IMG/VR virus record: IMGVR_UViG_3300015177_000008
Location: 32,001-96,000 of that record
DNA length: 64,000 bases
From: a virus
Taxonomy: Duplodnaviria > Heunggongvirae > Uroviricota > Caudoviricetes
Direction: 5' to 3' (one strand)
Part shown: piece after piece, positions 26,190 to 26,999 of the stretch
How the letters are laid out: each line of letters begins with the position of its first letter
Numbering within the stretch: the stretch's first letter is position 1
Translations under genes and position numbers: made by a program
The notes under the pieces: model-generated
The model's database searches: none
Told to the model about the DNA's origin: nothing
What the model saw: only the letters and a program-made list of their open reading frames with translations

Positions 26190-26999
26190 TCATCCAATAG
26201 TGTACTCCGCGACAAACTTCTTAACGATCGGTGATTCTTCGTTCAATGTTAGATTTCCACCGTCTCTAACGGCAATTCCTGTCGCTGGAAATACAGCCAT
26301 CATTTGCCCAGCCTGAGTTGACGCAGTGTTAAGCGGATACGGTTTTTCTGGATTGCTCATTAAAGCAATCTTAATACTATTACTTGTAGCCTTCTTTTCT
26401 GTGAGAAGGTGTCTCATGGAAATTACCGTGTAAACACTAATATCTGGACCTCCGCTAAACCAATTAAGAAGGTTTAATATCTTATCCTTTGCTTTGACAG
26501 GCGCGTTCTCATAAGCATCTAAAAAAATATCTTTATCTAAACCCGCTTTATTGAAAAACGCATCATCTTTATCACTTAGAGTAAAACGAGGACCTCTTGC
26601 AGTACGCGCTTTTTTATTTGTGTTGCTATCATTTGACTGTTGAACTTTTAATTCATCATTAATCTCAACACACCCTTCAACCTCGATGATCCCCAACTGT
26701 TCTGGTTCGTTTTCGGCAGCTTCACCACTTTCAGCGTTAATTACGTTTATAGGCTCATGCGCTAACTCCAACTCATTTAAAGCTGAGCTGAAATCACCTG
26801 CTTTTTCTTCATTGAACAGTTCTTCGGCAACATCATCAGAACTCATGGCTACGCCAGCATCGAGGCCTAGAAGCAGATCGTCAATATCATCAGTATTTTC
26901 GACCTGTGCAGCTTTTTTTACCGGTTCATCAAGTGATTGCAACATAGCTGTCAGTTCGTCCAGATCATCATTTGTCATTACATTTTCAACCGAACTCAT
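26190..26999 (-). CDS. Highly acidic protein (269 aa), function unknown
   Basis: N-terminal 120 aa very rich in D/E; SD aaggagac before ATG. Confidence 0.55.
   Translation of the reverse strand: MSSVENVMTNDDLDELTAMLQSLDEPVKKAAQVENTDDIDDLLLGLDAGVAMSSDDVAEELFNEEKAGDFSSALNELELAHEPINVINAESGEAAENEPEQLGIIEVEGCVEINDELKVQQSNDSNTNKKARTARGPRFTLSDKDDAFFNKAGLDKDIFLDAYENAPVKAKDKILNLLNWFSGGPDISVYTVISMRHLLTEKKATSNSIKIALMSNPEKPYPLNTASTQAGQMMAVFPATGIAVRDGGNLTLNEESPIVKKFVAEYTIG

What the first reader, a model, noticed from the sequence alone, without database searches (positions are those of the whole stretch)
26190..26999. Highly acidic protein next to exonuclease and homing-endonuclease genes: candidate DNA-mimic or anti-restriction factor
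The N-terminal 120 residues are dominated by Asp and Glu, a hallmark of DNA-mimic anti-restriction proteins (Ocr- or ArdA-like logic). It is encoded near the methyltransferase genes. This is purely a composition-based hypothesis.
Basis: inference. Interest (0 to 1): 0.35.

Follow-up and report, generated by a model that had tools for sequence, protein, structure and literature searches.

The report
Acidic-armed winged-helix protein of phage-plasmids
The gene is real and its front half is strongly acidic, but it encodes a two-part protein (a floppy acidic arm plus a DNA-binding-type winged-helix domain) that is a universally conserved, uncharacterised lytic-cycle gene of SSU5-type phage-plasmids, not a recognisable Ocr/ArdA-type anti-restriction protein.

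Summary
Observation confirmed. ORF 26190-26999 (minus strand) encodes 269 aa; residues 1-120 hold 33 D/E and 4 K/R (net -29).

The Ocr/ArdA-style anti-restriction reading is not supported.
- There is no sequence or fold match to Ocr or ArdA.
- The acidic part is predicted flexible or disordered. It varies in length (76-182 aa), and only 2 of its 34 acidic positions are conserved family-wide.

The window is an SSU5/pHCM2-like E. coli phage-plasmid.
- The family (PHROG 5235/3932, no Pfam) has about 659 clusters at 50% identity.
- It sits at one syntenic place, downstream of the DnaQ-like exonuclease, in SSU5-like, Nickievirus, Stenotrophomonas and Rhizobium phages.
- It co-occurs almost one-to-one with that exonuclease in about 890 plasmids.
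- It is at background expression in a lysogen.
- It is its own terminator-flanked unit, with a conserved promoter-like region and an unstructured leader.

Best reading (inferred): a DNA-anchored protein whose polyanionic arm, carrying amphipathic DD-Φ-D-x-L motifs, docks on a nucleic-acid-binding partner. RNA polymerase is the top candidate, by analogy with SPO1 Gp44 and RNAP δ. Function is untested.

The parts
26190..26999 (-). CDS, 269 aa (stop included). Uncharacterised family PHROG 5235; PGAP calls it 'hypothetical protein' WP_042063035.1 in a near-identical plasmid.
26640..26999 (-). Residues 1-120: acidic N-terminal arm (27.5% D/E, net -29). Low-confidence helices, no fixed fold predicted.
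26925..26972 (-). Residues 10-25, NDDLDELTAMLQSLDE: conserved amphipathic N-terminal helix motif ([DE]-Φ-D-x-Φ-L-x-x-L-[DE]). Detectable at about residue 11 in 120 of 185 family members. Best-predicted part of the arm (pLDDT about 80).
26859..26894 (-). Residues 36-47, TDDIDDLLLGLD: second copy of the acidic amphipathic motif. The DNA shows matching 16-19-nt direct repeats with the other copies.
26808..26840 (-). Residues 54-64, SDDVAEELFNE: third, degenerate copy of the motif.
26607..26750 (-). Residues 84-131: variable-length, indel-rich disordered linker (pLDDT <50).
26583..26615 (-). Residues 129-139, KKARTARGPRF: basic patch just before the globular domain. R132 and R138 are nearly invariant among enteric relatives.
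26193..26582 (-). Residues 140-269: winged helix-turn-helix domain (pLDDT >90). Family-invariant polar residues: K169, K173, N176, S188, Y190, T225, A226, Q229, Q232.
26280..26333 (-). Residues 223-240: predicted recognition helix (NTASTQAGQMMAVFPATG). It carries invariant T225, Q229 and Q232 on one face.
26244..26273 (-). Residues 243-252: β-hairpin wing with a conserved basic residue (R245).
27006..27011 (-). Shine-Dalgarno AAGGAG, 6 nt before the ATG.
27000..27043 (-). A/C-rich leader predicted unstructured (MFE -3.1 kcal/mol, centroid unpaired). A similar A/C-rich leader is seen in distant lineages.
27044..27095 (-). Conserved promoter-like region. It holds GCCTG (27086-27082) and GCCTG (27065-27061), 21 bp start to start, a CTTT block, and a -10-like CAAAAT (27049-27044). 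Conserved in five enteric lineages whose proteins are 41-69% identical to the window protein. The combination is unique in the genome.
27105..27158 (-). Intrinsic-terminator-like hairpin (15-bp stem, -18.1 kcal/mol, z -4.3) followed by a U-tract. It ends the upstream exonuclease operon. A hairpin of different sequence sits at the same place in all five enteric lineages compared.
26060..26155 (-). Two hairpins after the stop codon: 26113-26155 (-16.9 kcal/mol) and 26071-26114 (-27.3 kcal/mol, z -5.6, followed by UUUUAUUU). They act as the terminator of the monocistronic unit.

Best explanation
The gene encodes a lytic-cycle, DNA-anchored adaptor or regulator with two modules.

**C-terminal module.** The winged-helix domain, preceded by a short basic arm, binds nucleic acid. 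The family-invariant residues are polar (K, K, N, S, Y, T, Q, Q) and sit at three helix N-termini and along one face of the recognition helix. That pattern suggests backbone-type, low-specificity contacts.

**N-terminal module.** This is a flexible polyanionic arm of selected charge but free sequence and length. It carries 2-4 short amphipathic DD-Φ-D-x-L-Φ helices. The arm is proposed to dock on, or occupy, the positively charged nucleic-acid-binding surface of a partner enzyme.

**Proposed partner.** The partner I commit to is host RNA polymerase. The protein would then redirect or damp transcription during lytic growth, as SPO1 Gp44 and the Gram-positive RNAP δ subunit do with the same kind of architecture.

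**Expression.** The gene is made from its own insulated, probably regulated, efficiently translated unit. It is not expressed in the plasmid-prophage state.

**Shown:** gene, composition, domain architecture, fold class, family breadth, core status, synteny, transcription-unit anatomy, and silence in lysogeny.

**Inferred:** DNA binding, the role of the arm, and the identity of the partner.
For: **Architecture**
- The AlphaFold model has pLDDT >90 for residues 140-269, with an α-β-α-α-β-β wHTH topology.
- C-domain pairwise identity is 66% among enteric relatives and 33% family-wide, against 29% and 20% for residues 26-130.
- The invariant polar residues are listed.

**Arm**
- Charge is conserved in 172 of 185 representatives, while acidic positions and length are not.
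- The N-terminal amphipathic motif is conserved and repeated.

**Core lytic gene**
- 659 clusters at 50% identity.
- Present in SSU5-like, Nickievirus, Stenotrophomonas and Rhizobium phages of 105-122 kb.
- Always collinear with ThyA-DHFR-AAA_28-RNase_T.
- Per-genus counts in PLSDB are identical to those of the exonuclease in enterics. With a distant query, 888 records match, against 883 for the exonuclease.
- The Cyrano orthologue CYRAN_78 is at background level in the lysogen (PMC9928086 supplementary table).

**Own unit**
- Terminator hairpins lie on both sides and the leader is unstructured.
- The upstream region is conserved.

**Precedent**
- Gp44 is a small winged-helix-like DNA-binding domain plus a flexible acidic ssDNA-mimic domain. 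It anchors on DNA and binds RNAP β and β' (PMC8208478).
Against: - There is no experimental datum on this family.
- The wHTH match is generic, so protein-protein winged helices such as RPA32C or kleisin-type domains are not excluded.
- The C-domain is only mildly basic (median +3), and the recognition helix has no K/R.
- There is no sequence homology to Gp44 (BLASTP E 5.3).
- The gene's position in the nucleotide-metabolism/replication module, next to a DnaQ-like exonuclease, fits a replisome role equally well.
- Strong translation signals suggest an abundant protein, which is unusual for a classical transcription factor.
- The partner assignment rests on analogy only.
Confidence: 0.4

Rival explanations
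1. Replisome or recombination hub. The winged helix sits on phage DNA. The acidic arm works like the acidic tails of E. coli SSB, T7 gp2.5 or T4 gp32, recruiting or regulating the phage DnaE polymerase, the DnaQ-like exonuclease, helicase/primase or RecA/SbcCD.
For: - Fixed position at the end of the nucleotide-metabolism/replication module, 0-12 genes after the RNase_T exonuclease, in all lineages.
- Near-perfect co-occurrence with the exonuclease.
- The element encodes DnaE, a DnaB-like helicase, primase, ligase, RecA and SbcCD. No SSB or clamp appears in the annotated stretches I inspected, about 6-27 kb of the record not being listed.
- Layout of acidic tips, variable disordered linker and DNA-binding domain, with strong translation signals.
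- Expression rises together with the exonuclease gene in the LF82 time course.
Against: - The fold is a winged helix, not an OB fold.
- The gene is insulated from the replication operon by a terminator in the enteric lineages.
- Whole genomes are collinear in this clade, so synteny is weak evidence of functional linkage.
- No interaction data exist.
Confidence: 0.25
2. Nuclease decoy. The polyanionic arm mimics DNA and blocks a host DNA-targeting enzyme such as Type I restriction enzymes, RecBCD or another defence nuclease.
For: - Strong, conserved negative charge.
- In enteric relatives an orphan Dam methyltransferase lies immediately downstream and a DUF4942 methyltransferase further on.
- A Tad2-like ORF lies 2 kb downstream in an Enterobacter relative.
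- Flexible acidic mimics exist, for example Gp44.
Against: - No similarity to Ocr, ArdA or any known family.
- Acidic positions and length are not conserved and no rigid DNA-shaped scaffold is predicted, unlike ArdA, where surface D/E follow a helical pattern on a folded dimer (PMC2731889).
- The conserved winged-helix half is unexplained by a pure decoy.
- The gene is core, across hosts from Rhizobium to Klebsiella with very different defence repertoires, rather than patchy.
- Outside the enterics the downstream genes are not methyltransferases.
- The Dam gene next to it is dead here while this gene is intact.
Confidence: 0.12
3. Plasmid-maintenance protein, such as a centromere-binding or copy-control winged helix like TubR or AspA, used in the prophage-plasmid state.
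For: - The element is a phage-plasmid.
Against: - Background-level expression in the LF82 lysogen.
- The element already has Rep, ParB-like and MipZ/ParA-like genes elsewhere.
- The gene lies in the lytic DNA-metabolism module.
- The family also occurs in phages isolated as plaque formers on Pseudomonas, Stenotrophomonas and Rhizobium.
Confidence: 0.03
4. Not a real gene: a chance ORF with skewed composition.
For: None beyond the fact that the ORF listing is purely mechanical.
Against: - Full-length match to PHROG 5235 (E 1.5e-147).
- Hundreds of homologues with a conserved C-domain.
- A strong SD and flanking terminators.
- A confident fold prediction.
- Annotated by PGAP.
Confidence: 0.01

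Closest known systems
Bacillus phage SPO1 Gp44 (host-takeover RNAP inhibitor; PMC8208478)
   Same: Both combine a small winged-helix-like DNA-binding domain with a flexible, strongly acidic, disordered region. In Gp44 that region acts as a nucleic-acid mimic. Gp44 anchors on DNA and binds RNAP β and β'. The sizes are similar (237 vs 269 aa).
   Different: No sequence homology (BLASTP E 5.3). The domain order is reversed: DNA-binding domain N-terminal in Gp44, C-terminal here. Gp44's acidic region is far more extreme (57% D/E, no basic residues) and lacks the conserved amphipathic motifs. Gp44 belongs to a non-core host-takeover module of a Gram-positive myovirus, whereas this is a core gene of proteobacterial siphoviruses and phage-plasmids.
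RNA polymerase δ subunit (RpoE) of Firmicutes (from established knowledge, not tested here beyond Pfam)
   Same: A winged-helix-type globular domain plus a long polyanionic disordered tail. The tail competes with nucleic acids on RNAP.
Acidic tails of ssDNA-binding proteins (E. coli SSB, T7 gp2.5, T4 gp32)
   Same: All share the layout of DNA-binding domain, variable disordered linker and short acidic docking motif used as a protein-recruitment hub. They are abundantly expressed and sit in a replication-module context.
   Different: The fold here is a winged helix, not an OB fold. The arm is N-terminal and much longer, with several motifs. ssDNA binding is untested.
Ocr (T7 gp0.3) and ArdA DNA-mimic anti-restriction proteins
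   Same: Low pI, and encoded by mobile elements that face restriction.
   Different: Ocr and ArdA are fully folded dimers whose surface carboxylates trace B-DNA (ArdA: PMC2731889). Here the acidic part is flexible, indel-rich and positionally unconserved, and it is fused to a winged helix. No sequence or fold similarity was found.
ArsR/SmtB, MarR, PadR, MecI-type winged-helix regulators
   Different: No sequence-level membership, with no Pfam or NCBIfam hit for any of 61 members. No ligand- or metal-site motifs. An added long acidic arm.

Membership tests
Ocr (Pfam PF08684) | Detectable sequence similarity to the Ocr family | tested here: not met
   hmmscan against Pfam-A at E ≤ 1 returned only two spurious sub-threshold hits, neither of them Ocr. 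None of 61 family members hit it.
Ocr / ArdA DNA mimics | Rigid folded scaffold with positionally fixed surface carboxylates that trace B-form DNA | tested here: not met
   The arm has pLDDT <50 for residues 84-131 and mostly 50-65 for residues 25-83. N-region length varies 76-182 aa. Only 2 of 34 D/E positions lie in conserved acidic columns family-wide, and 9 of 34 among enteric relatives.
ArdA (Pfam PF07275) | Sequence similarity and a three-domain α/β elongated dimer | tested here: not met
Anti-restriction proteins in general | Inhibition of Type I (or other) restriction in vivo or in vitro | not testable with these tools
   Requires plating or transformation assays, or binding assays with purified EcoKI.
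Winged helix-turn-helix fold (superfamily level) | α1-β1-α2-α3(recognition)-β2-wing-β3 topology with a three-helix core | tested here: met
Winged helix-turn-helix DNA-binding proteins | Actual binding of DNA through the recognition helix and wing | not testable with these tools
   Only indirect evidence: invariant K169, K173, N176, S188, Y190, T225, Q229 and Q232, a basic wing residue, and a preceding basic patch.
ArsR/SmtB, MarR, PadR, Fur (Pfam families) | Sequence-profile membership | tested here: not met
   No Pfam or NCBIfam match for the protein or for 61 relatives. Profile searches against PDB sequences found nothing.
PHROG 5235 / 3932 (phage proteins of unknown function) | Profile match over the full length (5235) or the C-domain (3932) | tested here: met
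   phrog_5235 E 1.5e-147 over residues 1-269. phrog_3932 E 3.8e-15 over residues 169-265. All 61 diverse members hit both.
SPO1 Gp44-like DNA-anchored RNAP inhibitors | Homology to Gp44 | tested here: not met
   BLASTP of the two proteins gives best E 5.3.
SPO1 Gp44-like DNA-anchored RNAP inhibitors | DNA-binding domain plus flexible acidic mimic region; binding of RNAP β/β' | tested here: inconclusive
   The architecture is analogous in silico. RNAP binding cannot be tested here.
RNAP δ subunit (HARE-HTH, Pfam PF05066) | HARE-HTH domain followed by an acidic C-terminal tail | tested here: not met
   No HARE-HTH hit. The acidic region is N-terminal.
SSB-type ssDNA-binding proteins | OB-fold DNA-binding core | tested here: not met
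   The predicted core is a winged helix. No SSB Pfam hit.

The most novel reading that the evidence does not exclude
The family is a previously unrecognised, universally conserved 'DNA-anchored polyanionic arm' factor of the SSU5/Nickie/RHEph10 supergroup. This supergroup includes about 890 clinical enterobacterial, Acinetobacter and Aeromonas phage-plasmids.

In this reading the protein tethers to DNA through a new winged-helix family. It uses a disordered nucleic-acid-mimicking arm with docking helices to capture host RNA polymerase, or another DNA enzyme, during lytic growth. It would be a Gram-negative, non-homologous counterpart of SPO1 Gp44 and RNAP δ.
Probability: 0.25. Interest if true: 0.6.

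Novelty: new variant of a known kind. Interest (0 to 1): 0.4.

Why it matters
SSU5-like phage-plasmids are common in clinical Klebsiella, E. coli, Enterobacter, Salmonella and Acinetobacter, with about 890 PLSDB records holding this gene. They carry resistance genes, yet their lytic programme is essentially unstudied.

This protein is one of their invariant core genes and belongs to no described family. Knowing whether it controls transcription, replication or a host enzyme would fill a gap in how this large group switches to and runs lytic growth. If the arm proves to be a flexible nucleic-acid mimic tethered to DNA, it would extend that mechanism to proteobacterial phages. So far the mechanism is shown only for SPO1 Gp44 and RNAP δ.

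For the scan itself, the result shows that acidity alone does not identify an Ocr/ArdA-type anti-restriction protein.

Tried and rejected
**Sequence searches that found no known family**
- Pfam, NCBIfam and PDB sequences with the single protein.
- The same with profiles of 61 full-length members or 42 C-domains.
- The N-terminal arm alone against PDB.

**Structure searches**
- BFVD viral structures gave nothing informative.
- The AFDB50 library was not available.
- Foldseek against PDB gave no hit at E ≤ 0.001, only generic wHTH.

**Loci and domain fusions**
- The search for related loci with the diverse alignment failed because there is no conserved 7-10-column stretch. Contexts were obtained instead through tblastn on phages and plasmids and through the look-up of encoding contigs.
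- A search for informative domain fusions of the C-domain found only the same architecture or fragments.

**Lambda-O-style origin idea (iterons inside the gene)**
- The only internal repeats are the 16-19-nt copies that encode the repeated DD-Φ-D-x-L motif.
- There is no skew switch.

**Regulon idea**
- The conserved upstream GCCTG-N16-GCCTG plus CAAAAT arrangement occurs nowhere else in the window or in the rest of the near-identical plasmid, so no regulon could be defined.
- Distant lineages carry different upstream repeats while the recognition helix is invariant. Autoregulation through these repeats therefore remains unproven.

**Other**
- The sigma-70 scan found no convincing promoter.
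- Sigma-E and sigma-54 readings of the conserved block were considered by eye and dropped for wrong spacing.

Full report
**What is there**

It runs from 26999 (ATG) to 26190 (stop) on the minus strand and encodes 269 aa. An AAGGAG Shine-Dalgarno lies six bases upstream.

The composition claim holds. Residues 1-120 contain 33 Asp/Glu and 4 Lys/Arg, a net charge of -29. Residues 131-269 are neutral to basic (pI 8.9). Among the 45 ORFs of at least 120 aa in the window, only the CobT-like protein has an equally negative 120-residue stretch.

The neighbours are as stated, with one caveat.
- A DnaQ/RNase_T-type 3'-5' exonuclease lies upstream at 27158-27706.
- An HNH endonuclease lies at 27703-28497 (phrog_374, E 2e-79).
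- A Dam methyltransferase lies immediately downstream. In this window it is a pseudogene, from an 88-nt deletion between 11-nt direct repeats plus an extra A in a poly-A run.

**Where the window comes from**

- The region is 96% identical to Escherichia phages Cyrano, PhiR41_1 and CMS-2020a.
- The first 24 kb of the window is 100% identical to a 113.7-kb E. coli plasmid.
- SSU5 itself carries a 57%-identical orthologue, SSU5_087.
- The element encodes DnaE, a DnaB-like helicase, primase, ligase, RecA (with an intein), SbcCD-like proteins, RuvC, NrdAB, ThyA, DHFR, a Rep initiator, ParB-like proteins and a siphovirus structural module.

It is therefore an SSU5/pHCM2-type phage-plasmid. Every annotation of the target gene, including PGAP, reads 'hypothetical protein'.

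**Anatomy of the protein**

Alignment of 23 enteric homologues and of 61 diverse members shows five segments.
- A conserved amphipathic helix at residues 10-25 (NDDLDELTAMLQSLDE).
- One or two further copies of the same DD-Φ-D-x-L-Φ motif at residues 36-47 and 54-64. These appear in the DNA as 16-19-nt direct repeats.
- An indel-rich acidic linker.
- A short basic patch at residues 129-139.
- A very well conserved C-terminal domain.

AlphaFold2 with the family alignment predicts residues 140-269 at pLDDT above 90. The topology is helix-strand-helix-helix-hairpin with flanking helices. The arm is modelled as low-confidence helices, apart from the N-terminal motif at about pLDDT 80, and residues 84-131 are disordered.

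- Pfam, NCBIfam and PDB sequence searches are empty for the protein, for 61 relatives and for profiles.
- Only PHROG 5235 (full length, E 1.5e-147) and PHROG 3932 (C-domain) match. Both are of unknown function.

The residues invariant across the whole family are all polar: K169, K173, N176, S188, Y190, T225, A226, Q229 and Q232. They lie at three helix N-termini and along one face of the predicted recognition helix. I read this as a nucleic-acid-backbone-binding surface. That reading is an inference.

**The acidic arm is selected as charge, not as shape**

An exhaustive HMM search finds 659 clusters at 50% identity. In 185 full-length representatives:
- the N-region has median length 164 aa (range 59-223) and median net charge -24;
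- 172 of 185 are at or below -10;
- the C-domain has median charge +3;
- the N-terminal motif is detectable in 120 of 185.

Only 2 of the 34 acidic positions of the window protein fall in conserved acidic columns family-wide, and 9 of 34 among enteric relatives. Pairwise identity of residues 26-130 is 20-29%, against 33-66% for the C-domain. This is the signature of a functional polyanionic disordered region carrying short docking motifs. It is unlike Ocr or ArdA, where folded dimers display carboxylates in a fixed DNA-like helical pattern (PMC2731889).

**A core gene of a large phage clade**

tblastn finds the family in several groups of 105-122 kb: SSU5-like elements, Pseudomonas Nickievirus, Stenotrophomonas phages BUCTxx99 and ANB28, and Rhizobium RHEph10-like phages.

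In every genome and metagenome contig inspected, the gene lies on the same strand after ThyA-DHFR-AAA_28-(about 140-aa protein)-RNase_T exonuclease. Between 0 and 12 small genes intervene.

In PLSDB the per-genus counts of plasmids with this protein and with the exonuclease are identical for the enterics: Klebsiella 344, Escherichia 195, Enterobacter 89, Salmonella 49, Citrobacter 25, Cronobacter 10 and Shigella 7. With the Nickie homologue as query the Acinetobacter and Aeromonas plasmids are recovered as well. That gives 888 records, against 883 for the exonuclease.

Accessory counter-defence genes are usually patchy among close relatives. This gene is not.

**Expression**

In the re-analysed LF82 transcriptomes, the Cyrano orthologue CYRAN_78 is at the prophage background level in LB (about 11 normalised units). 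A neighbouring moron reaches 117. CYRAN_78 rises together with, and slightly behind, the exonuclease gene in the macrophage series (PMC9928086 supplementary table). The gene is therefore a lytic-cycle gene, not a lysogeny-expressed one.

The gene is its own transcription unit.
- A 15-bp-stem hairpin followed by a U-tract ends the exonuclease operon (-18.1 kcal/mol, z -4.3).
- Two hairpins follow the stop codon. The second is -27.3 kcal/mol (z -5.6) and is followed by UUUUAUUU.
- Hairpins of unrelated sequence occupy the same upstream position in all five enteric lineages compared.
- Between that terminator and the SD lies a block conserved across lineages whose proteins are only 41-69% identical to the window protein. 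It contains two GCCTG pentamers 21 bp apart, a CTTT block and a -10-like CAAAAT.
- The combination is unique in the genome.
- The leader is A/C-rich and predicted unstructured, here and in distant lineages.

Together with the strong SD this suggests separately regulated, efficient expression.

**How it most likely works**

Shown: a two-module protein, conserved as such, expressed in the lytic cycle. Inferred: the winged helix plus basic patch anchors the protein on nucleic acid, and the polyanionic arm with its amphipathic helices docks on a basic, nucleic-acid-binding surface of a partner.

Two experimentally studied proteins have this logic.
- SPO1 Gp44 has a small winged-helix-like dsDNA-binding domain and a flexible acidic ssDNA-mimic region. 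It anchors on DNA and binds RNAP β and β' (PMC8208478).
- The Gram-positive RNAP δ subunit is the second example (from established knowledge).

I therefore commit to RNA polymerase as the most likely partner, at confidence 0.4 for the overall model. There is no homology to Gp44 and no HARE-HTH match. This is 'works like', not 'is a member of'.

The main rival, at 0.25, is a replisome or recombination hub using SSB-tail logic. The module context favours it, and so does the absence of an annotated SSB or clamp in the stretches I inspected. A nuclease-decoy role, including anti-restriction or anti-RecBCD activity, keeps about 0.12. Nothing supports it beyond charge and the methyltransferase neighbourhood in the enteric branch. 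A plasmid-maintenance role is unlikely because the gene is silent in the lysogen.

**Verdict**

An acidic, possibly nucleic-acid-mimicking arm is plausible. An Ocr/ArdA-type anti-restriction protein is not.
- The object is an uncharacterised but very widespread core protein family with a new winged-helix sequence family and a conserved acidic arm. I class it as a new variant of a known architectural kind, with function still to be determined experimentally.
- Interest is moderate (0.4).

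Noticed in passing
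window 25477-26006 (-): The Dam (N6-adenine) methyltransferase gene next to the target is a pseudogene here. It has an 88-nt deletion between 11-nt direct repeats (TTCCTCAATCC) relative to the intact 594-nt gene of phage Cyrano, plus an extra A in a poly-A run near the 3' end. PGAP marks it 'frameshifted' in the near-identical plasmid.
   Followed up: yes
window 27703-28497 (-): A 264-aa HNH endonuclease (phrog_374, E 2e-79) is inserted between the phrog_5373 gene and the RNase_T exonuclease gene. It overlaps the exonuclease start by 4 nt. It is absent at this site in Cyrano, PhiR41_1, SSU5 and the E. fergusonii, Enterobacter and Raoultella relatives, so it looks like a recent homing-endonuclease insertion.
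   Followed up: partly
window 27044-27095 (-): Promoter-like block upstream of the target gene. Two GCCTG pentamers lie 21 bp apart, with a CTTT block and a -10-like CAAAAT. The block is conserved in five enteric lineages despite 41-69% protein identity to the window protein, and it is unique in the genome. What binds it is unknown; the sigma-70 scan did not call it.
   Followed up: partly
L006 (Stenotrophomonas phage BUCTxx99) about 7640-7700, and L010 about 9920-9975: Upstream of the homologous genes in two distant lineages there is a different shared motif (CGCTACATT ... GTCGCAGC ... GCGAC). BUCTxx99 has a GCGCTACA direct repeat at 22-bp spacing. This may be a lineage-specific operator or leader element.
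   Followed up: no
window 24769-24903 (-): A 44-aa ORF 97% identical in DNA to CYRAN_81. That ORF is about ten-fold above prophage background in the LF82 lysogen transcriptome (a 'moron' in PMC9928086). Its function is unknown.
   Followed up: partly
window 46553-48892 (-): The phage-plasmid RecA gene is interrupted by an intein with a LAGLIDADG homing-endonuclease domain (Pfam RecA, Intein_splicing and LAGLIDADG_3).
   Followed up: no
window 8993-11155 (-) and 12811-17061 (-): The element carries a full-length methionyl-tRNA synthetase (metG) copy and a 1416-aa inverse autotransporter (intimin/invasin-like). The stretch with the autotransporter is covered at 80% or more in only 2 of 5426 complete E. 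coli genomes, while metG/apbC is common in these plasmids.
   Followed up: partly
window 29632-30108 (-): The DHFR of the nucleotide-metabolism module corresponds to the gene that PGAP names trimethoprim-resistant DfrA51 in the near-identical plasmid.
   Followed up: no
L013 5741-6046 (Enterobacter cloacae complex phage-plasmid): A Tad2-like (anti-Thoeris family, weak Pfam hit) ORF lies about 2 kb downstream of the homologous gene. This hints that the variable region downstream of the target may collect counter-defence genes.
   Followed up: no
window 26859-26972 (-), residues 10-47, and homologues (e.g. P0004, P0184, P0136): From memory, not tested. The acidic amphipathic motifs (EIDDLLSGLD, DEIDALLAD, DEIDAMLAD) resemble the CheY-binding peptides of the FliM N-terminus (EIDALLNG) and the CheZ C-terminus (DDLLDSLGF). 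This may be chance similarity of simple acidic/leucine helices.
   Followed up: no
PLSDB plasmids: About 110-kb Acinetobacter baumannii (about 140 records) and Aeromonas (about 12) plasmids carry both the RNase_T exonuclease and a distant homologue of the target protein. They therefore belong to the same phage-plasmid supergroup.
   Followed up: partly
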